Shown here: in pieces, positions 1,012-64,000 of the stretch | Layout of the letters: each line of letters starts with the position of its first letter | How positions within the stretch are numbered: the stretch's first letter is position 1 | Source: Eledone cirrhosa | Lineage: Eukaryota | DNA: 64,000 bases | Assembly (NCBI GenBank): GCA_964016885.1 | Contig: OZ024742.1 | Location: 221,030,001 to 221,094,000, forward strand | Direction: 5' to 3' | The notes under the pieces: generated by a model | The model's database searches: none | The model's input: the letters and a program-made list of their open reading frames with translations, nothing else | What the model was told of the DNA's origin: nothing | Position numbers and translations under genes: made by a program

Positions 1012-1210
1012 TATAATAATTGTTTCTACTTTTGATACAAGGCCAGCAATTATCCCAGTGCATTACTGGTACTTTATTTTATCGACCCTGTCAGGATGAA
1101 AGGCAAAGTTAACCTCGGCGGGATTTGAACTCAGAATGGCAAGGGCCGTAACTCTATGCATCAAAGCATAGCGTCCGACCCTCTACCGATACTGCCAATC
1201 TACCACCCCA
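1012..1210 (-). mobile_element. tRNA-derived SINE (family A, about 190 bp)
   Basis: Minus strand has A-box TGGCAGTATCGG, B-box GAGTTCAAATCCC and a 3' end ...AAAAGTAGAAACAATTAT. Many near-identical copies occur in the window. Confidence 0.85.
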
Positions 1211-4200
1211 CTGCCAATCTACCACCCCTCTGCCAATCCACCGCCCCTCTGCCAATCTACCACCCCTCTGCCAATCCACCGCCCCTCTGCCAATCCACCA
1301 CCCCTCTGCCAATCTACCACTCCTCTGCCAATCCACCGCCCCTCTGCCAATCCACCGCCCCTCTGCCAATCCACCGCCCCTCTGCCAATCCACCGCCCCT
1401 CTGCCAATCTATCACCCCTCTGCCAATCCACCGCCCCTCTGCCAATCCACCGCCCCTCTGCCAATCCACCGCCCCTCTGCCAATCTATCACCCCTCTGCC
1501 AATCCACCGCCCCTCTGCCAATCCACCACCCCTCTGCCAATCTACCACCCCTCTGCCAATCTACCACCCCTCTGCCAATCCACCGCCCCTCTGCCAATCT
1601 ACCACCCCTCTGCCAATCTACCACCCCTCTGCCAATCTACCGCCCCTCTGCCAATCTATCACCCCTCTGCCAATCCACCACCCCTCTGCCAATCTACCAC
1701 CCCTCTGCCAATCCACCGCCCCTCTGCCAATCTACCACCCCTCTGCCAATCTACCACCCCTCTGCCAATCTACCACCCCTCTGCCAATCCACCACCCCTC
1801 TGCCAATCTACCACCCCTCTGCCAATCTACCACCCCTCTGCCAATCCACCGCCCCTCTGCCAATCCACCGCCCCTCTGCCAATCTACCGCCCCTCTGCCA
1901 ATCTATCACCCCTCTGCCAATCCACCGCCCCTCTGCCAATCTACCACCCCTCTGCCAATCCACCACCCCTCTGCCAATCTACCACCCCTCTGCCAATCTA
2001 TCACCCCTCTGCCAATCCACCACCCCTCTGCCAATCTACCACCCCTCTGCCAATCTACCACCCCTCTGCCAATCCACCGCCCCTCTGCCAATCTACCACC
2101 CCTCTGCCAATCCACCGCCCCTCTGCCAATCTACCACCCCTCTGCCAATCCACCGCCCCTCTGCCAATCTACCACCCCTCTGCCAATCTACCACCCCTCT
2201 GCCAATCCACCGCCCCTCTGCCAATCTACCACCCCTCTGCCAATCCACCGCCCCTCTGCCAATCTACCACCCCTCTGCCAATCTATCACCCCTCTGCCAA
2301 TCCACCGCCCCTCTGCCAATCTATCACCCCTCTGCCAATCTACCGCCCCTCTGCCAATCCACCGCCCCTCTGCCAATCTACCACCCCTCTGCCAATCTAC
2401 CACCCCTCTGCCAATCCACCGCCCCTCTGCCAATCTACCACCCCTCTGCCAATCTACCACCCCTCTGCCAATCCACCGCCCCTCTGCCAATCTACCACCC
2501 CTCTGCCAATCCACCGCCCCTCTGCCAATCTACCACCCCTCTGCCAATCTATCACCCCTCTGCCAATCCACCGCCCCTCTGCCAATCTATCACCCCTCTG
2601 CCAATCTACCGCCCCTCTGCCAATCCACCGCCCCTCTGCCAATCTACCACCCCTCTGCCAATCTACCACCCCTCTGCCAATCCACCGCCCCTCTGCCAAT
2701 CTACCACCCCTCTGCCAATCCACCGCCCCTCTGCCAATCTACCACCCCTCTGCCAATCTACCACCCCTCTGCCAATCTATCACCCCTCTGCCAATCCACC
2801 GCCCCTCTGCCAATCTACCACCCCTCTGCCAATCCACCGCCCCTCTGCCAATCCACCGCCCCTCTGCCAATCTACCGCCCCTCTGCCAATCTATCACCCC
2901 TCTGCCAATCCACCGCCCCTCTGCCAATCTACCACCCCTCTGCCAATCCACCGCCCCTCTGCCAATCTACCACCCCTCTGCCAATCTACCACCCCTCTGC
3001 CAATCCACCGCCCCTCTGCCAATCTACCACCCCTCTGCCAATCCACCGCCCCTCTGCCAATCTACCACCCCTCTGCCAATCTACCACCCCTCTGCCAATC
3101 CACCGCCCCTCTGCCAATCTACCACCCCTCTGCCAATCCACCGCCCCTCTGCCAATCTACCACCCCTCTGCCAATCTACCACCCCTCTGCCAATCCACCG
3201 CCCCTCTGCCAATCTACCACCCCTCTGCCAATCTATCACCCCTCTGCCAATCCACCGCCCCTCTGCCAATCTATCACCCCTCTGCCAATCCACCGCCCCT
3301 CTGCCAATCTACCACCCCTCTGCCAATCCACCGCCCCTCTGCCAATCTACCACCCCTCTGCCAATCTACCACCCCTCTGCCAATCCACCGCCCCTCTGCC
3401 AATCTACCACCCCTCTGCCAATCCACCGCCCCTCTGCCAATCTACCACCCCTCTGCCAATCTACCACCCCTCTGCCAATCCACCGCCCCTCTGCCAATCT
3501 ACCACCCCTCTGCCAATCTATCACCCCTCTGCCAATCCACCGCCCCTCTGCCAATCTACCACCCCTCTGCCAATCTACCACCCCTCTGCCAATCTACCAC
3601 CCCTCTGCCAATCCACCGCCCCTCTGCCAATCTACCACCCCTCTGCCAATCTATCACCCCTCTGCCAATCCACCGCCCCTCTGCCAATCTACCACCCCTC
3701 TGCCAATCTACCACCCCTCTGCCAATCTACCACCCCTCTGCCAATCTACCACCCCTCTGCCAATCCACCGCCCCTCTGCCAATCTACCACCCCTCTGCCA
3801 ATCTACCACCCCTCTGCCAATCTACCACCCCTCTGCCAATCCACCGCCCCTCTGCCAATCTACCACCCCTCTGCCAATCTATCACCCCTCTGCCAATCCA
3901 CCGCCCCTCTGCCAATCTACCACCCCTCTGCCAATCTACCACCCCTCTGCCAATCTACCACCCCTCTGCCAATCTACCACCCCTCTGCCAATCCACCGCC
4001 CCTCTGCCAATCTACCACCCCTCTGCCAATCCACCGCCCCTCTGCCAATCCACCGCCCCTCTGCCAATCCACCGCCCCTCTGCCAATCTACCACCCCTCT
4101 GCCAATCTACCACCCCTCTGCCAATCCACCGCCCCTCTGCCAATCTACCACCCCTCTGCCAATCCACCGCCCCTCTGCCAATCTACCACCCCTCTGCCAA

Positions 4201-7200
4201 TCTACCACCCCTCTGCCAATCCACCGCCCCTCTGCCAATCTACCACCCCTCTGCCAATCTATCACCCCTCTGCCAATCCACCGCCCCTCTGCCAATCTAT
4301 CACCCCTCTGCCAATCCACCGCCCCTCTGCCAATCTACCACCCCTCTGCCAATCCACCGCCCCTCTGCCAATCTACCACCCCTCTGCCAATCTACCATCC
4401 CTCTGCCAATCCACCGCCCCTCTGCCAATCTACCACCCCTCTGCCAATCCACCGCCCCTCTGCCAATCTACCACCCCTCTGCCAATCTACCACCCCTCTG
4501 CCAATCCACCGCCCCTCTGCCAATCTACCACCCCTCTGCCAATCTATCACCCCTCTGCCAATCCACCGCCCCTCTGCCAATCTACCACCCCTCTGCCAAT
4601 CCACCGCCCCTCTGCCAATCTACCACCCCTCTGCCAATCTACCACCCCTCTGCCAATCTACCACCCCTCTGCCAATCCACCGCCCCTCTGCCAATCTACC
4701 ACCCCTCTGCCAATCTACCACCCCTCTGCCAATCCACCGCCCCTCTGCCAATCTACCACCCCTCTGCCAATCTATCACCCCTCTGCCAATCCACCGCCCC
4801 TCTGCCAATCTACCACCCCTCTGCCAATCTACCACCCCTCTGCCAATCTACCACCCCTCTGCCAATCTACCACCCCTCTGCCAATCCACCGCCCCTCTGC
4901 CAATCTACCACCCCTCTGCCAATCTACCACCCCTCTGCCAATCTACCACCCCTCTGCCAATCCACCGCCCCTCTGCCAATCTACCACCCCTCTGCCAATC
5001 TACCACCCCTCTGCCAATCCACCGCCCCTCTGCCAATCCACCGCCCCTCTGCCAATCTACCGCCCCTCTGCCAATCTATCACCCCTCTGCCAATCCACCG
5101 CCCCTCTGCCAATCTACCACCCCTCTGCCAATCCACCGCCCCTCTGCCAATCTATCACCCCTCTGCCAATCCACCGCCCCTCTGCCAATCTACCGCCCCT
5201 CTGCCAATCTATCACCCCTCTGCCAATCCACCGCCCCTCTGCCAATCTACCACCCCTCTGCCAATCTACCGCCCCTCTGCCAATCTATCACCCCTCTGCC
5301 AATCCACCGCCCCTCTGCCAATCTATCATCCCTCTGCCAATCCACCGCCCCTCTGCCAATATACCACCCCTCTGCCAATCCACCGCCCCTCTGCCAATCC
5401 ACCGCCCCTCTGCCAATCTACCACCCCTCTGCCAATCCACCGCCCCTCTGCCAATCCACCGCCCCTCTGCCAATCCACCGCCCCTCTGCCAATCTACCAC
5501 CCCTCTGCCAATCCACCGCCCCTCTGCCAATCTACCACCCCTCTGCCAATCCACCGCCCCTCTGCCAATCCACCGCCCCTCTGCCAATCTACCACCCCTC
5601 TGCCAATCCACCGCCCCTCTGCCAATCCACCGCCCCTCTGCCAATCCACCGCCCCTCTGCCAATCTACCACCCCTCTGCCAATCCACCGCCCCTCTGCCA
5701 ATCTACCACCCCTCTGCCAATCCACCGCCCCTCTGCCAATCCACCGCCCCTCTGCCAATCCACCGCCCCTCTGCCAATCTACCACCCCTCTGCCAATCCA
5801 CCGCCCCTCTGCCAATCTACCACCCCTCTGCCAATCCACCGCCCCTCTGCCAATCTACCACCCCTCTGCCAATCCACCGCCCCTCTGCCAATCTACCACC
5901 CCTCTGCCAATCTACCACCCCTCTGCCAATCTACCACCCCTCTGCCAATCCACCGCCCCTCTGCCAATCTACCACCCCTCTGCCAATCTACCACCCCTCT
6001 GCCAATCCACCGCCCCTCTGCCAATCTACCACCCCTCTGCCAATCTACCACCCCTCTGCCAATCTACCACCCCTCTGCAAATCTACCACCCCTCTGCCAA
6101 TCTACCACCCCTCTGCCAATCTACCACCCCTCTGCCAATCTACCACCCCTCTGCCAATCTACCACCCCTCTGCCAATCTACCACCCCTCTGCCAATCCAC
6201 CGCCCCTCTGCCAATCCACCGCCCCTCTGCCAATCTACCACCCCTCTGCCAATCTACCACCCCTCTGCCAATCTACCACCCCTCTGCCAATCCACCGCCC
6301 CTCTTTCAATCTACCACCCCTCTGCCAATCCACCGCCCCTCTGCCAATCTACCACCCCTCTGCCAATCCACCGCCCCTCTGCCAATCCACCACCCCTCTG
6401 CCAATCCACCGCCCCACTGCCAATCTACCACCCCTCTGCCAATCCACCGCCCCTCTGCCAATCTACCACCCCTCTGCCAATCCACCGCCCCTCTGCCAAT
6501 CTACCACCCCTCTGCCAATCTACCACCCCTCTGCCAATCTACCACCCCTCTGCCAATCCACCGCCCCTCTGCCAATCTATCACCCCTCTGCCAATCCACC
6601 GCCCCTCTGCCAATCTACCACCCCTCTGCCAATCCACCGCCCCTCTGCCAATCTACCACCCCTCTGCCAATCCACCGCCCCTCTGCCAATCTACCACCCC
6701 TCTGCCAATCTACCACCCCTCTGCGAATCTACCACCCCTCTGCCAATCCACCGCCCCTCTGCCAATCTACCACCCCTCTGCCAATCTACCACCCCTCTGC
6801 CAATCCACCGCCCCTCTGCCAATCTACCACCCCTCTGCCAATCCACCACCCCTCTGCCAATCTACCACCCCTCTGCCAATCCACCGCCCCTCTGCCAATC
6901 TACCACCCCTCTGCCAATCCACCACCCCTCTGCCAATCTATCACCCCTCTGCCAATCCACCGCCCCTCTGCCAATCTACCACCCCTCTGCCAATCCACCG
7001 CCCCTCTGCCAATCTACCACCCCTCTGCCAATCCACCGCCCCTCTGCCAATCTACCACCCCTCTGCCAATCCACCGCCCCTCTGCCAATCTACCACCCCT
7101 CTGCCAATCCACCGCCCCTCTGCCAATCTACCACCCCTCTGCCAATCCACCGCCCCTCTGCCAATCTACCACCCCTCTGCCAATCCACCGCCCCTCTGCC

Positions 7201-7684
7201 AATCCACCGCCCCTCTGCCAATCTACCACCCCTCTGCCAATCCACCGCCCCTCTGCCAATCTACCACCCCTCTGCCAATCCACCGCCCCTCTGCCAATCT
7301 ACCACCCCTCTGCCAATCCACCGCCCCTCTGCCAATCCACCGCCCCTCTGCCAATCTACCACCCCTCTGCCAATCCACCGCCCCTCTGCCAATCTACCAC
7401 CCCTCTGCCAATCCACCGCCCCTCTGCCAATCTACCACCCCTCTGCCAATCTACCACCCCTCTGCCAATCCACCGCCCCTCTGCCAATCTACCACCCCTC
7501 TGCCAATCTACCACCCCTCTGCCAATCCACCACCCCTCTGCCAATCCACCGCCCCTCTGCCAATCTACCACCCCTCTGCCAATCCACCGCCCCTCTGCCA
7601 ATCTACCACCCCTCTGCCAATCCACCGCCCCTCTGCCAATCTACCACCCCTCTGCCAATCTACCACCCCTCTGCCAATCCACCT
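1191..7684. repeat. 19-bp minisatellite (CTCTGCCAATCYAYCRCCC)n, about 340 copies
   Basis: Directly visible tandem array. The unit matches the 5' end of the adjacent SINE. Confidence 0.98.
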
Positions 7685-7974
7685 ATAATAATAATAATAA
7701 TTAAATTATTGTGTACAGTGCTCAGGTGCATTACAACATTATGTATCCATTCATTAAAATACAAAATGGAATACAACTTCAAGGTGGACTGGATGGTGTT
7801 GACAAAAAAGCAAATAAAATTGTCATAGCAACAACACTATACAACGCATGTGTTTATGTGCTAAGGTGTGTGTGTGTGTGTGTCTATGTGTGCATGCCTA
7901 CATGTTTGTTAAAGCATGTTAAAGGTCTTATGTTGTATGTGTAATGTATCTAAGTGTGTGTAAATATTTCCATG

Positions 7975-21251: not shown

Positions 21252-21451
21252 NNNNNNNNNNNNNNNNNNNNNNNNNNNNNNNNNNNNNNNNNNNNNNNNN
21301 NNNNNNNNNNNNNNNNNNNNNNNNNNNNNNNNNNNNNNNNNNNNNNNNNNNNNNNNNNNNNNNNNNNNNNNNNNNNNNNNNNNNNNNNNNNNNNNNNNNN
21401 NNNNNNNNNNNNNNNNNNNNNNNNNNNNNNNNNNNNNNNNNNNNNNNNNNN
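21252..21451. other. Assembly gap (200 N)
   Basis: Run of n. Confidence 1.
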
Positions 21452-41997: not shown

Positions 41998-43995
41998 CTA
42001 GCAGAATGGCCAGGCGTTGCTCGGGCTTCTAAACATAGATTGGCGTGTTTGTAGCGACGTGGTTAGTCAGTCTAGTCACTACTTCTGATCAGATCCGAGA
42101 ATAGTCCTTAGAAGGACTGTTATCGCATACGGTCTGATCAGATATGAAGATAGCCCGTAAAAGGACTGTTGTCGCATATAGCCCTTAAAAGAACTGTTGA
42201 GGATGGACAGACGAAAGCACAAGTTGAAAGGACGAAGCAAGGCGAGATGTAAATTCGATCAGCTATTTATTTTCACATGAAGCGACGATACGAGGTACAA
42301 GGCGTGTGAGTGACAAAGCGTGGCAGAGTAAAGGAACATCGATGTGCTAGCTGACTCTGCCAAAAGTCGACTGACGAAGTGTTGGGAACCACTCTATTTA
42401 TACAGGAACAATCGTTTGATGTTTAGTCGATGTGTAGGCGTTTATTCTGGTAGGTTCTAAGGGTTCTTTTGTTTCGCGTTGAAGAAGCTAGCTAACAGGT
42501 AGATGGCGCTGTATATTTCACAGATGTTATTTCCGGTGGCTGTACATTAGCCCCCTGCCAGTTCTTTTGTACAACAAAAGAGCGAAATATCGTATAGTAA
42601 TGGGCCAGTGGTGCATTTGTAATGACAATAGCCCCAGGAGTGTCCAGCACGTTGTGAAATTTTGTGATCATCGAGTACAGGACAGAGTCGATGTAGAGAT
42701 GATATGGCAAGATGTGTGTGTCAGGAAGAGAAAAAAGAAATAAACTATAAAATGACTTTGACCAGTTGCAATTTCGGTTGAGCTGCCTGTGAATTGCGTG
42801 ACAAAAAGTCTAACTGGGCAGTGAAGATAACCGTAATGTGTGAACTGAATGGCCGTAAGCATGCTGCCTAAAAGTACCAGTTGGCTCCACAGCATATGAC
42901 TTGAGCGAATGCATGTGGTAAAAAAAATAGCGAGGCATTCTCGAGCTATTGAGCGAATGCGTACGTGAATAAAGAAGGCCAGTGTTTTGAGGATGCGATT
43001 TGTGAAATGCATGATCAAAGAGAAAACATTTTGTAGTGTAAGAGTTAGAGGGACACAAATATCTATTGCTCAGTGTATGAACTAAAAGGGTGAAACAAAC
43101 GTGGTTTTGTAGTGTGCATGAAACACAGAATATGTACACGCCTTGTATGTATATAAAAATTATAGCAATTACACAATCAATGTTACAGAACAAGAAAAAT
43201 TCAAATTTTGCAAAACAAGAAAGAGAAGTAGCTAGCTAACAGGTAGATGGCGCTGTATATTTCACAGATGTTATTTCCGGTGGCTGTACATGTTTATCCC
43301 TCCTTTCTGAAACAGTACAGAGAAGTACGGAATATTTCGGCCTGGGGATGGTGTCTACATTTTGTGCTTAGGCAAATCATTTTCCATTAAGATTTTTCAA
43401 AAGCATGTAATTGCGTTCCCTCTCTTTTTTTGTTGTTTTTGCTGATGTTGGTGTGATAGCAACCGTTGGTCGTACTACTAACACAGTCTCGTCCTGCTTC
43501 AGCCAATCGTGTATATTCCCTTCTGCCTCGTCTACCTAAACAATGATTGTAGTACCTCCTTGTACACAATGTTCCTTGTTCTTCCGTGTCGTGCATATGC
43601 AAAGAGATTTGTCTTGCTTCCACTCTTGAGCAACCAACGTATAGTTGCCCTTGTGAAAAACATGACTCTTCCAAAAGAGGACCAGGAACAGCTAGGGTCT
43701 GACCCTGGGATTTGTTGATAGACATTGCAAAGCTGACACAGTTCGGCAAATGGTTCGTTGGTTGTCTGTTTCAAGTGCTCTTCTGGTGGCAGCATCTTGC
43801 GACCGTCGAATAGCAGATTCCACTGACGATTCGTTTGCCCGCCTTGTTCTTTTTCTTGCCGCTTTCGCAGTATTTCGGCCAATGGAGTATCTCTTCCTTC
43901 GAGGCATGACCTAAAAGCAGGACGAAGAACACTAAGACTAACTGGTAGAATAAGGAGTAAACTCGTCAGTCATGCATGTGATTTCCGAACCGTTG
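41998..43995 (-). mobile_element. Internally deleted Helitron (5' boundary approximate)
   Basis: 3' end hairpin GCCCGAGCAACGCCTGGC followed by CTAG|T. PIF1-helicase C-terminal motifs FAMSINKSQGQTL and GQLYVGCSRV lie directly after an N-terminal MPRRKR segment. Confidence 0.85.
42050..43290 (-). mobile_element. Deleted LTR retrotransposon nested in the Helitron
   Basis: TG...CA termini with a 4-bp TSD TGTT (42046-49 and 43291-94). Full LTR 42050-42546 is preceded on the minus strand by PPT-like GGCAGGGGG. About 60 bp of the other LTR remains at 43230-43290. Confidence 0.8.
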
Positions 43996-44151
43996 ACTAT
44001 GTAATTGCTGGCCTTGTGCCAAAAGTAGTGGGACTTTTTGGGTGGCATATCGGCAGTAACAATGACGATAAGCCGTCTGTGCTTTCGTGAAATAAATAAG
44101 TTTCTTTATATTTTGTTTTTATGTATGCAAAAATATCTGTACACGAATATA

Positions 44152-44191
<40 letters not shown>

Positions 44192-44344
44192 CAAGATGTA
44201 TGGTAGGTCGTATGTGAATTGCGATGATCACGTCTGACCTACCAAATATGTGACGGTAGCTAGTTAAACTCTATGCGTATAAGCAGAGCAGAAATATTAA
44301 TGAAAAAGAACAAAGGAACTATTATGACATTATAACAAGTTTAT

Positions 44345-44391
44345 TGCCGACAGCCGTTTCGTCCGACCATATGGTGGGACTTTTCAAGGCA
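44345..44391 (-). ncRNA. Hammerhead ribozyme motif (U3-A8 variant), left-arm copy
   Basis: Exact reverse complement of 48002-48048. Confidence 0.72.
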
Positions 44392-47300
44392 TATAACATG
44401 TGATTGTAAGTTCATTATTTACATCAATGAATCACTTAAGACTAGCAGTTTGAAATTGTGGTATACATCAGCAGCTCCGCTTGTGTATTTGGGGTCTATA
44501 TTCTAAGGGGGCTCCTTTATATTAGTTGTCGGAATTGTAAAAGGGATGGGTTATGGGGAGTTAAGAGAATTTGAAAATGTCCTGAGAGTCAGGGATTGAA
44601 GGTTAAAAATTAGATAATTTATAATTACGTATTAAAAGTAAAAGACTTGGGATCTCGTAGAAGCACCCTAAAAAATCCCTCAATAAGTGCATATAGCTTA
44701 CAAGCCCCAATAAATTTAACAAACTAGAAGAGATTAAGAGACTAATAAAATAAAATAAAAAAATAAAGATATAAAGTTTCCCTAAAAACTATAAAGTTTC
44801 CCAAGAAGTTCCCCCGAGAGAAAAAAATTTCTTTCGAGAGAAAAAAACCTTCTTCCCCAGAGATCTCGTTAAAAATTTTTCGAAAATTTACGAAGTTTTG
44901 ATAATCCCTACTAAGTTGAAAGAAACTAATCAATTAAAGGTTAATTCAAAAAGCCTTCAATAAACCCCTCAGAAGAGGCCCCTTTAATATTTTTAATAGG
45001 AACCTCCTCCGAGAGACCCTTCGAAGAATTAAAATTTTAGAGAGCCTTTAAGGATATGTATAAACGAATTGGGGAAAATTATAAATTAAAAGTTAAAAAT
45101 TACGGTATTTGGGATATCCGAGGAATTTTCAAAGGGCTGGTTCAACAGATATAACTTAGGTATAATAGATAAAATAATTTAAGTAATTTAAGTAATTTAA
45201 TTAGGGAGCAATTCAAAGAGCTTATCAAGTTGGGCAAGATTAAAGAGAATTATAAGTAAGAAAATACATAAGCAAAAAGACAATAATTATAAAATGGCAT
45301 AGTATTCTCAGGACTCAACTTGCTTAACAGGAGATCAGAAATCTTCTCGTCCTGCCCCCACACTATACTTAGCTCTTTCTTTTTCTTCAGACCAGACACA
45401 TAACCCTGACCCCACCCTGTCCCGCACATGACTGCCCCTCTGGCGAATAGGGTGCTCTTTAGTAACCCCGGCCGCATTGATGCCTCGGCTCCCCGATTGC
45501 CGATGGGGACTCCGGTGAGGAACAGTCGACCCTGTGTCCCTATTGCCAACCTGGGATTGGTGGCAGCATTATTGCTGGGCACCCTGCGGGCAGACGATGC
45601 CTGCGGTGTGGGACATTGTGAGTGCCTGGACCCACGTTGACTGATCTGGGGAGGTGCCGTCGGAGATGTATGTCAACAAATACGGGAACTTGCCCAAGGA
45701 AACAGTAACAGAACACCCAATATGGCGGCCGCTCCCTGCCTATAACCAATCAAACCCCTCTCCTCCCCTAATAAACCCCCGCCCAAATAGATGCCTCTCC
45801 CCACTCTCCCCCACTCACTTCTTTTGAGTTAGTTCTTCTTTATTATTAGTGGTTCTTTTTGAGTTAGTTCTTTATTAATGGTGATTTTTTTTTTGTATAT
45901 TTCCACGGTTGACTTAATGGGCTTGGAGAGTTGACTCCCTTGATGTCTGACCACTCGATAAGTTAGGGGCTGTGCCCCTTGAGCAGGGATGTGTCTAGCT
46001 GGTCTACCTGCTGTCTGCTACTACCCGAGACTGGACACGGTCGTAGCCACAGGCCAGCGCGTGCGCGATGGCATGGAATATATATTTTCTGCTAGTCACC
46101 CCGTGTAATATGATACCCCAAGATTCCATGCATGAGATTCACCGAAGCATGCGCAGTCTTAACCGGGAGATGACAAACGAACTTGAAAATAACACAAGAG
46201 AGACCCTACTTGCATATATATACAGACCTGTCTTGAATGTGCATGGCTGACGCAATATGGATAACACGACCAACATCTAAGCTGGAACCGACCCCTACAA
46301 CAAACAAAGAGGGGACAGCCCTTCGCATTTGACCAGTCGCGTGTGTGCTTGGAGTTCGTGGTATACCACCCCAGTCAAATCCACACTGGTTTTTTTTACC
46401 AATATAGCATGTAAACCAATACATCCTATGCAGCGAGACCTTGGATTTGGAACTGGCACCGTTCAACCCCCGAAACTAAAAGATCGAACGGACCACACCC
46501 AGCAACCACTAGCTATTTGATCCACAGGTACATTTCCCAGAGAGTCCACGCGGCTGATAGTGAATCCCAGTTGATTCGTGAACTCTGAACTTTTAAACAA
46601 GACCAAATGTGCCTGGAGCTATGCAGATGACTACATACGCATAATGGATATCGCGCCCACAAGGTCGCCTGTATTATTTATCCTGCTGTATGTGTGTAAA
46701 GTATCCGTACGTGGGATATCCCTGAGTACATTTTCTTGACTATCAATGGTTAATTGATTGTTTGTTGATTACGCAGGGGTATACCATTATGTCTTTGTTA
46801 ATCATATGTAATGCTGTATGGGTGTAAAGTATCCGAGAGCGGGATATCCCTGAGCTAATTTTGCTTAACTGTTAATTGTTTATTGATTTTGTTAATTAGG
46901 CAGGAATATATTATTATGTCTTTGTTAATCCTGTATCAATAATTTTATAGTAATTTTTTTTAATCCTGTATCAATAGTTTCATGATAATTTTGTAATAAT
47001 TTTATAATAATTTTATAATAATTTTGTGATAGTACATTATTAGATTACTGAAGCTACCTTATACCTTCTTAAAAATACATTTTATAATTATTGTTTTTTA
47101 AAAATACATTTTATAATTATTGTCTTTTTGCTTATGTATTTTCTTACTTATAATTCTCTTTAATCTTGCCCAACTTGATAAGCTCTTTGAATTGCTCCCT
47201 AATTAAATTACTTAAATTACTTAAATTACTTAAATTATTTTATCTATTATACCTAAGTTATATCTGTTGAACCAGCCCTTTGAAAATTCCTCGGATATCC

Positions 47301-48001
47301 CAAATACCGTAATTTTTAACTTTTAATTTATAATTTTCCCCAATTCGTTTATACATATCCTTAAAGGCTCTCTAAAATTTTAATTCTTCGAAGGGTCTCT
47401 CGGAGGAGGTTCCTATTAAAAATATTAAAGGGGCCTCTTCTGAGGGGGTTATTGAAGGCTTTTTGAATTAACCTTTAATTGATTAGTTTCTTTCAACTTA
47501 GTAGGGATTATCAAAACTTCGTAAATTTTCGAAAAATTTTTAACGAGATCTCTGGGAAAGAAGGTTTTTTTTCTCTCGGGGGAACTTCTTGGGAAACTTT
47601 ATAGTTTTTAGGGAAACTTTATATCTTTATTTTTTTATTTTATTTTATTAGTCTCTTAATCTCTTCTAGTTTGTTAAATTTATTGGGGCTTGTAAGCTAT
47701 ATGCACTTATTGAGGGATTTTTTAGGGTGCTTCTACGAGATCCCAAGTCTTTTACTTTTAATACGTAATTATAAATTATCTAATTTTTAACCTTCAATCC
47801 CTGACTCTCAGGACATTTTCAAATTCTCTTAACTCCCCATAACCCATCCCTTTTACAATTCCGACAACTAATATAAAGGAGCACCCTTAGAATATAGACT
47901 CCAAATATACAAGCGGAGCTGCTGATGTATACCACAATTTCAAACTGCTAGTCTTAAGTGATTCATTGATGTAAATAATGAACTTACAATCACATGTTAT
48001 A

Positions 48002-48048
48002 TGCCTTGAAAAGTCCCACCATATGGTCGGACGAAACGGCTGTCGGCA
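48002..48048 (+). ncRNA. Type I hammerhead ribozyme motif (U3-A8 variant)
   Basis: TGCC-TTGAAAA-GTCC-cACCAtaTGGTc-GGAC-GAAA-CggctG-TC-GGCA. GUC cleavage predicted after C48044, with AATAAA immediately after. Confidence 0.72.
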
Positions 48049-48092
48049 ATAAACTTGTTATAATGTCATAATAGTTCCTTTGTTCTTTTTCA

Positions 48093-48130
<38 letters not shown>

Positions 48131-50238
48131 TAACAGATTAAAGTTTAAGCAAAGAATCGTTGCTTTCACCCTTAATGGGATCTTCTGAAACTAAAAAAAT
48201 CAATCTATGAACGCAGAAGTAAATATTTTGAAAAACATTGCAACCGAAGGAAAACAGGAAGACGATACTTTGGTTCGTGAAGACGTTCCCTGGCAATGAA
48301 CCTAATGCAGACAGCCAGACATACAGACGTTATCGCTATGTAGCTATCTAAAAAAGACAACAGAAAATTGAAAAATAAAAGCTGCAGTTATTATCTTTAG
48401 ACCGCAAGGAATATATAAAGGTAAGTTTGAAGTCATTCGGAGTAGAAATATGGATTTATATAGACTTTGCAAAAATTAGGACACACACACACAGACAATT
48501 TCAGTTTTATATAGATGTATAGATAACAATATTCACTTTGCACATCGAGTAATATTATTTATGACATGAAATATCCAAACATTAAATTGTTAGCTGCTAC
48601 GAGTTAACGTGAATGCATGTATCAGAGAAGACAATATAGTATAAGTTGTGTTGTGTCTTGCAGATACAATATGACAGGAGGAATAGGATGAGCGTATAAT
48701 ATAAACAATATGAACTTACTATGTGTGTGTGTGTGTGCCTATTCTTAGAATATATTATTCTTCTCAAGAATGCTACTTCATGTCTGGCTGCCTGGCTGTG
48801 TCGGTGGTCGGTAAAGTAGAAGCCAGTAAGAACCAGAAGAAAGATAGAGTGAAAGGTCTGCTAATGCCTACATCGCTATTGCTCGCTGACTGCGACTTCG
48901 AGTCTGTCCCTTGGATTCCTTAACTCCTTGTATTTATAATAAGTGCTAAAGTTAGAAGGATGGATATATGAGGTTGATTTATGATCAGCCATGTGGTTAT
49001 TGTCTCCCGAGAAGCTGGGGTCACAGGTCAAGTGGAATGTACATTTATCATCGCTGTCTTTGACAAGACAATGGTGAGAACCTCCAACGATAGATAGTCC
49101 TAGAAGCGTGAAAGCTCAGATTCGGTTTCGAAACTTCGCCGGTAAAACATAGGAGTATTCCATTATATATTCAATATATAAATGATGAATAGTTGCTTCA
49201 TGTAAAATTGTAACAGTATATTATCAACTGAATAAATTAGAACTGACACGTATGTCTCCATATTTAGCATACTTCCATAACCAGACCTGCCAACCTCTAT
49301 AAACCCAAACAGGAAATACCCTGAAAAAAAGTGCCCCCAAAACAGGGAGAAATGAGGCAAAATGGGGAGATTTTATATAATGAAAGTTATACCCATTTTC
49401 ACAAGACATGTCATCCAAAGTTGAACTCATGGCATACACCCCACACTTGCCTGAGGTTAAAGTAGGCTCTTCAGTTGTGTCAATAATAACAACCTCTCTA
49501 GTGCTGCCAGTACACCCTATAAAATGGTTGGTGATAGGAAGGGCATGCCACTGTAGAAACAATACAAACAAAGGTAGAGATGACTCTTTAATTGTGCCCA
49601 GGATACAACAGCCTCTCTATACAATAAACACATCCAGTACACTTTGTAAAGTGGTTGGTAATAGATCCACATATGAAGGGCACCTAGCCTTAGAAGACCT
49701 GCCAAACATAGGGTCATATAAATATATATATAATATACATATATATATATATATATATATGTCGCTGTGAGGTAAGAAGTGTAAGTAATTGATTAATCAA
49801 AATTATTGACTGTGGATTTGCTTCTCAGTACTGAAATGCTTGTAGAATACAAAAGGATGTGTAAAATTTCTAAAAAGCTTTAGTTATCTTTTACACACAT
49901 TTGCATATCATCATCATCATCATTTTACGTCCGCTTTTCCCTGCTTGCAAGGGTGGGACGGGAACTGATTCTGGCTTGATTTCTACAGCTGGATGCCCTT
50001 TCTAACACCAACCTCATTTACAGTGAGTGGTGGGTGCTTTTTTGCCGTGGCACCTCCACGACCACTTTGCAGTGGAATGATATAGACCCCAGTCCCTATC
50101 ATCTCATTTCTACAGCTGAGTAAGCTGGAGCAATGTGAAATAAAGTGTCTTGCTCAAGGAAACAACACATCACCCAGTCTGAGAATTGAACTCACAACCT
50201 TTCGATTGCAAGGCCAATGCTCTAACCACTAAGCCATG

Positions 50239-50461: not shown

Positions 50462-50512
50462 AGCTTCTACAGGACTAGTACTGTTTCATTCAGATGAAAT
50501 CTTCAGGAAGCT
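50462..50512 (-). ncRNA. Type I hammerhead ribozyme motif
   Basis: Minus strand: AGCTTC-CTGAAGA-tTTC atct GAAt-GAAA-CAG tactagtc CTG-TA-GAAGCT, 5 nt from (TA)n. Confidence 0.75.
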
Positions 50513-50804
50513 GGGTGTCATATTAAGTTCTGGTATTTATACATTTAGGTAGTGGTAAGGGAGGGGTGGTGGAGGGGGGGGGGTATTTAGATACACGGGA
50601 CCACTTCATGGCACAGGCCGTTTTTTCTTTGGGGAGTGGTCAATAAGCCAGAGTGCTTTTTTGAAATAATTAAATGAGTAAATAAATAAATAAATAAATG
50701 AATAAATAGATAAAAGAATAGATAGATAAAATAAATAAAAGAATAAATAAAAATAAATAAATAAAAACCCCATGAATAGTAATTCAACAGATATATAGTA
50801 GGGA

Positions 50805-51283: not shown

Positions 51284-52445
51284 ATCATCATCATCATCAT
51301 CATCATTTTAGGTCCGCTTTTCGCTGCTTGCAAGAGTGGGACGGGTCCTATTAAGCACAGCATCTTTCCATTCGTCATGGTCCTTTGTCACCTCCGTGAG
51401 TGAGCTGCAGCGATCTGAGGTCTGCTCTCACCACCTCCGCCCATGTTTTTCATGGTCTTCCTTCTACTGGGATTTCTTGGCACTTCTTTACCCAGTGGTC
51501 ATCCTCCATGCGCATCACATGTCCATAACAACGCAGTCTTCTCTCCTGCGCACTACAGCCTATCCCTCTTATACACAGTTTCTTTCTCAACACGTTTATG
51601 GTTGGTCATTCACACACATTGACATTGCGACTTCTACTGTCAAATGTCCCTGTACATCTACTGCATATGTAGTTTTCCCTACCTGTTAGTTTGCCTGTTA
51701 TCCCACTACATCTCTTGTGTACCCAAGATCTGCATTGTGTACATTTTATAGAATTTATGCCAACTCCTTTCCTACATATCAAATATGGCCATTTCCCTGA
51801 TGGAATCAGAGTTTTGTCCTCTTTTCTACTTATCAACACCTTAGTCTTAGTAGGTTCACTCCCAGTCCTCTTCATTCCAACTGCTGTTTCCACAGCCAGA
51901 ATTTATTCTCAAGCTCCTCTACTGATTCTGCTATAAGTAACAGATCGTCAGCATAGAGAAGTTCCCATGGGTAGCCAGTCTTAAACTCCTCTGTTATCGC
52001 TTGGAGGACTATAATGAACAAGAGCAGGCTGAGGGCCAAACCCTGATATACTCCTACTTGTATCTGGAATTCCTCACTAAACTCCATTCCTACTCTCACT
52101 TTACTAACAGCACCTCTGTACATAGCTTGCACTGTCCTCACAAGCCATTCCTCTACACCTAGTTTCCTTAGGGACCACCAGATGACAGATTGGGGTACTC
52201 TATCGAAGGCCTTCTCTAGGTCAATAAAAGCTAAGTATAGTGGCTTATTCTCTAAGAACCTCTGTTGTAGTTGTCTCACTAAGAAGAGGGCATCTGTTGT
52301 ACTTTTCCCAGTCACAAAACCGAACTGCATCTCATCTAATTTGACCCTTTCTCTAATTAGTTGCGCTAGTATTCTTTCTGCCACTTTCATAACCTGATCC
52401 TATAATTGCTCCTCTCCAGAGCATCCCCTTTACCTTTGTAGCAAT
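51284..52445 (-). mobile_element. Degraded RTE LINE copy
   Basis: ORF 51872-52390 has [15 protein letters not shown] and LLYADD. A zinc-finger remnant and a (CAT)n tail are present. Confidence 0.88.
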
Positions 52446-62152: not shown

Positions 62153-62970
62153 GTAAGAATTACTTAGTATTCTTCTTTTCATCTATTTCTTTATATCTTC
62201 ATCATAATTATCATTTAGCTCCCATTTTCCCTGCTGGTAAAGATTGAACAGGTCTTCACAGACTGTGTTAGTACTTATGCAGGCCTACTGACCTCCAGAC
62301 AGGTTGGGTGGTCTGTATCTCATTTATATCATCATCATCGTTTAACATCCATCTTCCACGCTAGCATAGGTTAGACGGTTTTGTTCCATTTGATGCGAGA
62401 ATGGTTGGGAGACTGTGTCTCACTTGTACAGAAGTGTCTCTGGCAGGTTTTCTACAGCTGGATGCCCTCCCTAACACCAACCACATTTACAGTGTGGACT
62501 GGGAACCTTTTTACCGTGTCTCGACCACCTTACAGTGTGGACTGTTGTGTCATCGACACAGTGGACGGAAAAGGGAGGATGAGGTAGGGTGTGGAGGGTG
62601 GGGTGCACATTGGGTTAAGAGGTGCCTACTGACTAGGTTTGTATGCAATGGCAGTCAGGTCTATAATGATGATATAAAAGTTGGTGTTAGGAAGGGCATC
62701 CAACGGTAAAAAAAACCTGTCAGTCCTATACGAGCGAGTCACGGTCACCCGACCAATCTTACCTCAAATGGGACAATTCCCGTTTAACCCATTCTAGTGT
62801 GGAAGATAGATGTTAAACGATGATGATGATGATATATATATATATATATGTATAGACATAGAATATTCGAAAATATTCTGTATGTTTATAATAAACATTT
62901 TGAAGACCTAATCGCTATAGAATAGAATACGTCACGTATTACAATTAGATTCTCGATAAAAGCAAGGGAA

Positions 62971-63013
62971 GTAATCTACGCGTTTCATTCTTGTTAGAAT
63001 TCATCAGGACTAC
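62971..63013 (-). ncRNA. Minimal type I hammerhead ribozyme (antisense copy)
   Basis: Reverse complement of 63175-63217. Confidence 0.85.
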
Positions 63014-63174
63014 ATATCCAGTGCTTTTATCGAGAATGACACAGCTAGAGACTTATAGAATACTTAGCTGTGTACTGGAACTGGTTTGAAGAGCTCTTTC
63101 AAACCAGTTCCAGTACACAGCTAAGTATTCTATAAGTCTCTAGCTGTGTCATTCTCGATAAAAGCACTGGATAT

Positions 63175-63217
63175 GTAGTCCTGATGAATTCTAACAAGAA
63201 TGAAACGCGTAGATTAC
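63175..63217 (+). ncRNA. Minimal type I hammerhead ribozyme (sense to STEEP1)
   Basis: GTAGTC-CTGATGA-ATTC taacaa GAAT-GAAA-CGCG-TA-GATTAC. Stem I is extended by ATTCTCGATAAAAGCA/TGCTTTTATCGAGAAT. Cleavage predicted after A63211. Confidence 0.87.
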
Positions 63218-64000
63218 TTCCCTTGCTTTTATCGAGAATCTAATTGTAATACGTGACGTATTCTATTCTATAGCGATTAGGTCTTCAAAATGTTTATTAT
63301 AAACATACAGAATATTTTCGAATATTCTATGTCTATACTCACATATATATCGCTATTTCAGAGCATTTATTCCAATTTATATATATATATATAAATATAC
63401 ACACACACACACTAGACTTCCCCAGTTTCTGTCTACCAAATTCACTCAAGGCAATGGTCAGTCAAAAAGTATTATAGAAGATACTTGTACAGGGAGCTAT
63501 GCATTGGTATTGAATTTGAAATGTGGTTGTGAAGAAAACTTAACAACAAAGCTGTTTGTACATAGACTGGTTCTTTATTTTACTGATCCAAGATGAATGA
63601 AAGCTAAAGTTGACATTGGTGGGATTTCAATCCAGAACATTATGCAACAAATATCAGCAAAGTATTTTGACCTATTTATTTACGGTTTGCATTTTATTAT
63701 GTCATGTCTTCCTACAGTACTGTGCACATAAACATCCCAGACCATGTCCAGAGAAAAGCCACTTGACTAATTAGCATAAAGTCACTTACAGATATACTTT
63801 TAGACCTTTGGCTCACAGACATACTGTCTCCTATATTTGCTTTGTGGAGCTATCTGGTGTCAGCTCTTCAGAGCTGGCTAACTGATCTCTTTCTTTCAGA
63901 GCTAGATGGTCTTATGTCACCTCTACTGAAGTATTGTTTCCTCCTTTCATCATTCTTGCTGTGTCCAACCCTGTCAAGCCCTACACTAAAATGATACCCA

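What the first reader, a model, noticed from the sequence alone, without database searches (positions are those of the whole stretch)
44294..48099. 3.8-kb foldback element with 1-kb arms ending in U3-A8 variant hammerheads
Seen: near-identical inverted arms of about 1 kb, each with an outward-facing HHR (core TTGAAAA instead of CTGANGA, stem II GTCC/GGAC, GUC cleavage triplet) followed by AATAAA. The 1.8-kb spacer has a GC-rich segment (45350-45780), a tandem duplication of about 128 bp (46685-46935) and no long ORF. Established: the C3-G8 pair of HHRs can covary to U3-A8. Inference: the compensatory change suggests a selected ribozyme. The element looks like a young non-autonomous Penelope-like unit with inverted pseudo-LTRs that could yield long dsRNA.
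Basis: partly seen in the sequence, partly recalled or inferred. Interest (0 to 1): 0.75.

Follow-up and report, generated by a model that had tools for sequence, protein, structure and literature searches.

The report
Two-armed Hydra-type Penelope retroelement stub
This fold-back is a truncated, two-armed insertion of an abundant Penelope-like jumping gene, a known kind of structure with a known hammerhead variant, but its two ends sit just before a pair of small conserved hairpins that likely tell the element's reverse transcriptase where to start on each DNA strand.

Summary
The arms and hammerheads are real. The element is not a separate non-autonomous unit. It is two 5'-truncated copies, joined head to head, of a 5.3-kb autonomous Penelope-like element (PLE) of the Hydra clade, with open 863-aa reverse transcriptase/GIY-YIG frames elsewhere in the genome. 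The 'spacer' is the last 36 codons and 3' UTR of the longer copy. The insertion splits a (TA)n tract in a host repeat. U3-A8 hammerheads, inverted copies, one-sided tails and (TA)n targets are all published for PLEs. Added here: U3-A8 is derived (three sister families carry C3-G8); 28 of 29 two-armed insertions have one tailed and one tail-less end; sister arms share a source; in four families both ends lie 2-7 nt before twin bulged GCUC...GAGC hairpins, also readable in published coral and sea-cucumber consensus sequences. They likely set the two reverse-transcription starts (inferred). This scan noted the twin hairpins before on other DNA of this genome. No editing scar or RNA evidence for dsRNA was found.

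The parts
43289..44149 (.). left part of the host repeat that was interrupted
   Evidence: 17 of 24 relatives continue through a short TA tract straight into the right flank
44156..44189 (.). (TA)n target tract, left side
44189..44293 (-). PLE tail (~105 nt; 107-110 with TA-compatible bases), on the left arm only; its outer end is insertion end 2
44268..44289 (-). bulged hairpin 1 (GCUC-UG...CA-UA-GAGC; this copy ends GAGU). Hairpin 2 lies just past the tail end and is not copied into this insertion
44294..45296 (-). short arm: inverted 5'-truncated copy of the element's 3' end
44343..44392 (-). type I hammerhead, U3-A8 core, C17 at 44349
45294..45296 (.). head-to-head junction, 3-nt overlap (ATG) between the two copies
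45293..45403 (+). last 36 codons and stop of the RT/GIY-YIG ORF (LLNRRSEIFSSCPH motif)
45404..48099 (+). long 3' UTR / pseudo-LTR of the long arm (2.7 kb); longest ATG frame in two intact copies is 80 codons
45718..45729 (+). YY1-like motif in the GC-rich segment (motif name recalled; function untested)
   Evidence: motif in 21 of 30 loci L031-L060
46684..46930 (+). 128-bp tandem duplication, a family-wide feature of the 3' UTR
48001..48050 (+). type I hammerhead, U3-A8 core, self-complementary 8-nt stem III, C17 at 48044
48091..48099 (+). tail-less end (insertion end 1), ends in ATAT matching the target
48096..48125 (.). (TA)n target tract, right side
48126..48525 (.). right part of the interrupted host repeat

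Best explanation
This is one insertion of a Hydra-clade Penelope-like retrotransposon into a (TA)n tract, made of two 5'-truncated copies joined head to head, likely because both cut DNA strands primed reverse transcription on RNA from one source, each starting just before one of two bulged hairpins. Shown: the identity of the element, autonomous relatives, the two fixed ends, the twin hairpins next to them, the shared source of sister arms, the empty target site. Inferred: the GIY-YIG domain cuts both strands of (TA)n; each 3' end pairs by 3-4 nt with a UAU/AUAU just 5' of hairpin 1 or hairpin 2; two RT active sites bound at the hairpins copy inward for independent distances; the two cDNAs join through a few bases of microhomology. 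The tail is then the RNA between the two start sites. The hammerhead is predicted to work as a dimer in tandem transcripts; cleavage is untested and it must be uncut or re-ligated on the template, since both starts lie 3' of it. Confidence: identity about 0.95, hairpin-directed two-strand priming about 0.6.
For: Autonomous partner: tandem array with a 5.26-kb period and open 877-codon frames in L111-L113; model pLDDT 84.6, top fold matches telomerase RT; RT aspartates invariant in 118 aligned proteins; Hydra motifs met. Ends: 28 of 29 two-armed insertions have one tailed and one tail-less end; the tail is on the longer arm in 15, the shorter in 10, equal in 3. Ends cluster at two sites in family A (75 of 76), B (12 of 12), C (6 of 7), D (16 of 16), each 2-7 nt 5' of a GCTC...GAGC hairpin; tail length 107/94/94/164 tracks hairpin spacing 106/99/92/166. 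The same hairpin is readable in published Hydra consensus sequences of coral and sea cucumber with changed upper stems. Sister arms are closer than the median of other arms in 27 of 27 insertions; 9 of 11 long pairs are cherries, at most 4 in 10,000 shuffles; 14 of 14 outward pairs agree in N7 subtype, P about 0.001. The anole PLE protein cuts and extends both strands and starts at two internal sites that define the tail (PMC11167929).
Against: No biochemical or RNA data for this family. The hairpins are weak alone (fold z -0.2 for hairpin 1; the hairpin 2 stretch folds otherwise in the copy tested), and my descriptor was derived from these sequences, so its shuffle control overstates significance. 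One of 29 insertions has two tail-less ends. The anole protein starts at sites not homologous to the cut DNA, unlike the TA microhomology here. Sister-arm likeness could come from gene conversion after insertion. Junction microhomology was read only from BLAST overlaps; an exact test failed. Loci were chosen as best hits or listed pairs, not at random. No clear twin hairpin was seen in the stretch of Hydra-1_Obim that was shown.
Confidence: 0.65

Rival explanations
1. Self-priming fold-back (Arkhipova et al. 2013): one RNA or cDNA folds back and copies itself; the two ends are then set by endonuclease cuts that resolve the hairpin intermediate, and the hairpins would be recognised as DNA, not RNA.
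For: Explains near-identical sister arms. 3 of 29 insertions have equal arms, and near-symmetric palindromic junctions occur (L134, L143, L145). Proposed in PMC3846280 (passages); Craig et al. ascribe the tail to endonuclease resolution.
Against: In 10 of 29 insertions, the window's among them, the tail is on the shorter arm and missing from the longer one, so the short arm cannot be a plain copy of the long one. Most junctions are asymmetric. Two RT start sites matching the tail were shown in vitro for the anole element.
Confidence: 0.2
2. Two independent insertions or later DNA rearrangement, with arms homogenised by gene conversion.
For: TA tracts are hit repeatedly (one search shows neighbouring PLE ends); two pairs of arms differ by 5% (L137, L141).
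Against: Strict one-tail/one-tail-less pairing (28 of 29), 14 outward against 1 inward close pair among the first 100 listed matches, direct joins without target DNA between the arms.
Confidence: 0.08
3. A distinct non-autonomous 3.8-kb fold-back family selected to make long dsRNA.
For: The copy codes for no intact protein; 1-kb arms would pair if transcribed through.
Against: No other locus has these breakpoints. No A-to-G excess: 22 A>G against 22 T>C in arm-private changes, 20 against 23 at distinct shared sites.
Confidence: 0.05
4. Assembly artefact or DNA transposon with terminal inverted repeats.
For: Long inverted repeats are prone to mis-assembly; no contig of the three public runs laid spans the element.
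Against: Arms differ by indels; ends are asymmetric; RT partner found; empty site exists with no non-TA duplication.
Confidence: 0.02

Closest known systems
Hydra clade of C-terminal EN+ Penelope-like elements (Craig et al. 2021, PMC8557442; section 11, passages and parts of the supplement read)
   Same: Single RT + C-terminal GIY-YIG ORF; RW(K/R), DKT, CxCX5C linker, CxxC and CxH around the conserved E and N, no CCHH; hammerhead in the pLTR; (TA)n target.
   Different: Unit 5.3 kb against generally under 3 kb; 863 aa with two disordered inserts (484-584, 683-713); 2.7-kb 3' UTR; U3-A8 core, whereas the 6 Hydra rows seen in File S2 are C3-G8; the twin hairpins are not mentioned in the parts read.
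Typical PLE insertion with inverted 5'-truncated copy and one-sided tail (Adineta Pen2a, PMC3846280 passages; Craig et al. preprint passages)
   Same: Head-to-head inverted copies, tail on one end, partial tandems.
   Different: Tail about 105 nt instead of 30-40; it lies upstream of the ORF start; no non-TA target duplication can be seen.
U3-A8 minimal hammerheads of Schistosoma Cercyon PLEs (Cervera and De la Pena 2014, PMC4209133, parts 1-2 of 4 read); natural U3-A8 covariation (Perreault et al. 2011, PMC3088659, passages)
   Same: U3-A8 core, short palindromic stem III suited to dimer folding, motifs also found close together on opposite strands.
   Different: Here the change is placed on a tree: derived within a C3-G8 group, so probably an independent origin.
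Poseidon element PAc of Anolis (Frangieh et al. 2024, PMC11167929, parts 1-2 of 4 and text of two supplementary figures)
   Same: Works like it: AT-rich target, both strands extended, two internal starts that define the tail, sequence 3' of the start needed.
   Different: PAc starts inside the ORF in one AC-rich stem-loop without homology to the target; here starts lie in the 5' leader before two separate hairpins and match TA.

Membership tests
Penelope-like element (EN+) | Telomerase-like reverse transcriptase in the family's ORF | tested here: met
   Fold matches led by TERT, E 6e-9; D259, D355, D356 invariant. Pfam and PDB sequence searches gave no hit.
Penelope-like element (EN+) | C-terminal GIY-YIG endonuclease | tested here: met
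   VVY..YVG..F..RF..H motif by eye; best homologue carries PF01541; no direct Pfam hit on this protein.
Penelope-like element (EN+) | Partial tandems, inverted 5'-truncated copy, one-sided tail | tested here: met
Penelope-like element (EN+) | Hammerhead in the pLTR | tested here: met
Hydra clade | RWK-type motif and DKT instead of DKG | tested here: met
   RIRWRT and SDKTR
Hydra clade | CxCX5C linker; CxxC and CxH flanking E and N; CCHH absent | tested here: met
   CNCRKKDKC; CSLCLSESH...LN...CPH; no CxxC inside the GIY-YIG core
Hydra clade | Insertion into (TA)n | tested here: met
Hydra clade | Generally short (<3 kb); a tendency, not a diagnostic | tested here: not met
   5.26-kb period; sister families 4.2-5.1 kb
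Hydra clade | Phylogenetic placement with named Hydra elements | not tested
   Published proteins were only compared by eye; the tree holds no named reference.
Nematis / Neptune clades | CX2-5CxxC linker and CCHH motif | tested here: not met
Hammerhead ribozyme, type I | Core nucleotides and three stems | tested here: met
   U3, A6, G12-A14, A15.1 and U16.1 invariant in 106 of 106 rows, A8 in 105 (part of the motif was the search anchor); stem III self-duplex -9.7 kcal/mol
Hammerhead ribozyme, type I | Self-cleavage | not testable with these tools
   needs an assay
Non-LTR retrozyme / distinct non-autonomous family | Fixed short non-coding unit repeated in tandem | tested here: not met
   variable truncations of a coding unit
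Fold-back DNA transposon | Symmetric terminal repeats, target duplication, transposase partner | tested here: not met
   asymmetric ends, RT partner, no non-TA duplication

The most novel reading that the evidence does not exclude
Hydra-clade PLE RNAs carry two copies of a bulged GCUC...GAGC hairpin, conserved from corals to sea cucumbers to this genome, that dock the two halves of a telomerase-like RT and set one start site per target strand. One RNA source is copied twice, which explains both the inverted arms and the one-sided tail, and the tail length is simply the hairpin spacing.
Probability: 0.55. Interest if true: 0.7.

Novelty: new member of a known kind. Interest (0 to 1): 0.45.

Why it matters
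The element itself is ordinary PLE debris and the U3-A8 core is published. What matters is the family data. The origin of the PLE tail and of the inverted arms is an open question in the papers read. The twin hairpins give a defined RNA signal that can be moved or broken in an existing type of in vitro assay, with young families that have open frames. The C3-G8 to U3-A8 switch between sister families is also direct comparative evidence that these poorly active hammerheads are under selection.

Tried and rejected
First clade guess (Neptune/Nematis) rejected after reading the Hydra definition. Pfam and PDB sequence searches did not recognise the protein. RNA runs: no RNA holder listed; the three runs of unknown kind gave only short contigs, mostly 90-99% alike, with depth rising toward the element's 3' end, and none spans the insertion. 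ADAR signature: none; an apparent A>G excess among changes shared by sister arms (52 against 33) vanished when sites were counted once (20 against 23; private shared 7 against 8); singletons 14 A>G of 143 A against 22 T>C of 191 T. AATAAA as poly(A) signal: not conserved in families C and D, and ends are TA, not poly(A). Second ORF in the 3' UTR: none over 80 codons. Exact junction-microhomology script failed on mismatches. Complex prediction of two copies of residues 1-480: no answer, no evidence either way. mir-515 Rfam match (E 0.37) taken as chance. Literature: no description of the twin hairpins was seen in the listings of searches or in the passages read; subscription papers, Arkhipova 2006 and figure images were not visible, nor the .gbk supplement of PMC11167929. 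The idea that long TA tracts at the ends (median 10.5 and 18 units) are added by the RT could not be separated from slippage.

Full report
Observation. The inverted arms are at 44294-45296 and 47107-48099, 96.7% alike with 5 substitutions and two indels. Each holds an outward-facing type I hammerhead with core UUGAAAA, a 4-bp stem I, stem II closed by G-C, and a stem III that is only 2 bp as a monomer but self-complementary over 8 nt. Rfam finds both below its threshold (20.1 bits). The 128-bp duplication is present.

What the element is. The 3' end has 1228 candidate places in the first look of the genome search (not a copy number). A 20-nt core pattern has 869 exact matches. The GC-rich part of the spacer has 156 candidates, and in 28 of the 30 loci fetched the match runs back to window position 45294, where most go on into a shared upstream sequence. 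That sequence is a PLE ORF: a tandem array with a 5.26-kb period and open 877-codon frames at three loci, 863 aa from the first Met. The window keeps its last 36 codons at 45293-45403. The model (pLDDT 84.6) matches telomerase RTs best. All sequence motifs that define the Hydra clade in Craig et al. 2021 are met; the size is not typical. I first read the clade as Neptune/Nematis; earlier notes of this scan pointed to Hydra, and I then tested it. So the insertion is a long 5'-truncated copy (45294-48099, +) joined by a 3-nt overlap to a shorter inverted copy with the tail (45296-44189, -). It splits the TA tract of a host repeat; 17 of 24 relatives of that repeat show the empty site with no other duplication.

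The hammerhead. U3-A8 is published for natural hammerheads (PMC3088659, passages) and for Schistosoma PLEs (PMC4209133). Here it can be placed. Three sister families (76, 71 and 69% identical in the RT) carry C3-G8 at the same place upstream of the ORF. The tree is (D,(B,(C,A))), with support 97/96 for B+C+A and 85/84 for C+A, so U3-A8 in family A is derived (midpoint root, 11 unnamed homologues outside). The first 100 listed of 869 matches with A8 all have U3, while N7 is A in 74 and U in 26. With G8 in this context there are 3 matches, all C3 and of the sister type. Both single-change states are thus rare or absent while the free position varies. This supports selection on the pair, not activity as such.

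Architecture across copies. One search mapped 34 rows; 5 were dropped (one duplicate, three without an inverted arm, one with a lost end). Of the 29 left, 28 have one tailed and one tail-less end and one has two tail-less ends. The tail is on the longer arm in 15, the shorter in 10, and arms are equal in 3. Breakpoints differ at every locus. Sister arms are closer than the median of other arms in 27 of 27 insertions and closer than every other arm in 9 of 27. On a tree 9 of 11 long pairs are cherries, against at most 4 in 10,000 shuffles. These loci were best hits or listed pairs, not a random sample, and gene conversion is not excluded.

Twin hairpins. In families A-D the copy ends fall at two sites (75 of 76, 12 of 12, 6 of 7, 16 of 16). 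Each site ends in TAT or ATAT, matching the target, and lies 2-7 nt 5' of a hairpin of the form GCUC, upper stem, two-base 3' bulge, GAGC. The upper stem starts UG/CA in hairpin 1 and C(C)/(G)G in hairpin 2 (the descriptor found 7 of the 8, missing a copy with a UC bulge). Tail length follows hairpin spacing: 107/106, 94/99, 94/92, 164/166. Three more families met by chance carry hairpin 1. In the supplement of Craig et al. I read both hairpins in Hydra-1_Ajap, hairpin 1 in Hydra-2_Ajap and in Hydra-2_Amil (upper stem changed on both sides), a loose variant in Hydra-1_Crog, none clearly in Hydra-1_Obim, and Hydra-1_Amil ends before the place (by eye). I noted the motif; six earlier notes of this scan describe it on other DNA of this genome, which is not independent support. 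I did not see it in the listings of searches or the passages read.

Mechanism. The anole PLE protein cuts and extends both strands, starts at two internal sites that match the tail, and needs RNA 3' of the start (PMC11167929). Applied here by inference: both strands of (TA)n are cut, each 3' end pairs with a UAU just before a hairpin, two cDNAs grow inward from RNA of one source, stop independently and join. This accounts for head-to-head arms, one tail per insertion on either arm, and tail length. Self-priming (PMC3846280) explains equal arms but not a tail on the short arm unless ends are set later by the nuclease. Both starts lie 3' of the hammerhead cut site, so the template must be uncut or re-ligated.

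dsRNA. Nothing supports it here. No A-to-G excess was found, and both arms read outward. It remains possible under read-through.

Verdict. Real, explained, and a new member of a known kind. Interest 0.45 rests on the testable twin-hairpin model and the polarised C3-G8 to U3-A8 switch.

Noticed in passing
window 62850-63340: Palindromic stub with two 241-nt arms between TA tracts, each with an outward C3-G8 hammerhead; a different PLE-like family.
   Followed up: partly
window 50474-50514 (-): Single hammerhead-like core CUGAAGA...GAAAC followed by TA tracts.
   Followed up: no
L064 (G000:C5:57.61 Mb): The closest full-length relative seen sits in the TA tract of another copy of the same host repeat, in the same orientation as the window's insertion.
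   Followed up: partly
L125:9204-9257; L085:923: A second, unrelated U3-A8 hammerhead family, in an inverted pair in L125.
   Followed up: no
L116/L117, L120/L129, L125/L128: Sister-family hammerheads carry other core departures: C4 in family D, no G10.1-C11.1 pair in B and D, and GUU or GUA triplets.
   Followed up: no
L061-L063 (G000:C2:219.149-219.165 Mb): Three-unit array whose two inner hammerheads share a U4G change absent from the outer ones, suggesting DNA-level duplication.
   Followed up: no
window 45718-45729: YY1-like motif (name recalled) in the GC-rich start of the 3' UTR, in 21 of 30 loci; a possible internal promoter for the next unit.
   Followed up: partly
window 43289-44149 and 48126-48525: High-copy host repeat; one frame at 43387-43770 (-) resembles a Helitron-type helicase motif by recall, with no Pfam hit.
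   Followed up: partly
window 51872-52399 (-): Fragment of a non-LTR reverse transcriptase (RVT_1, E 4e-19).
   Followed up: no
window ~1100-7800; 21252-21451: 19-bp satellite array of about 340 units; a 200-nt N gap.
   Followed up: no
G000: The RT query gave 36,947 first-look candidates, and family D has many identical pLTR copies, so PLEs are abundant and recently active here.
   Followed up: no
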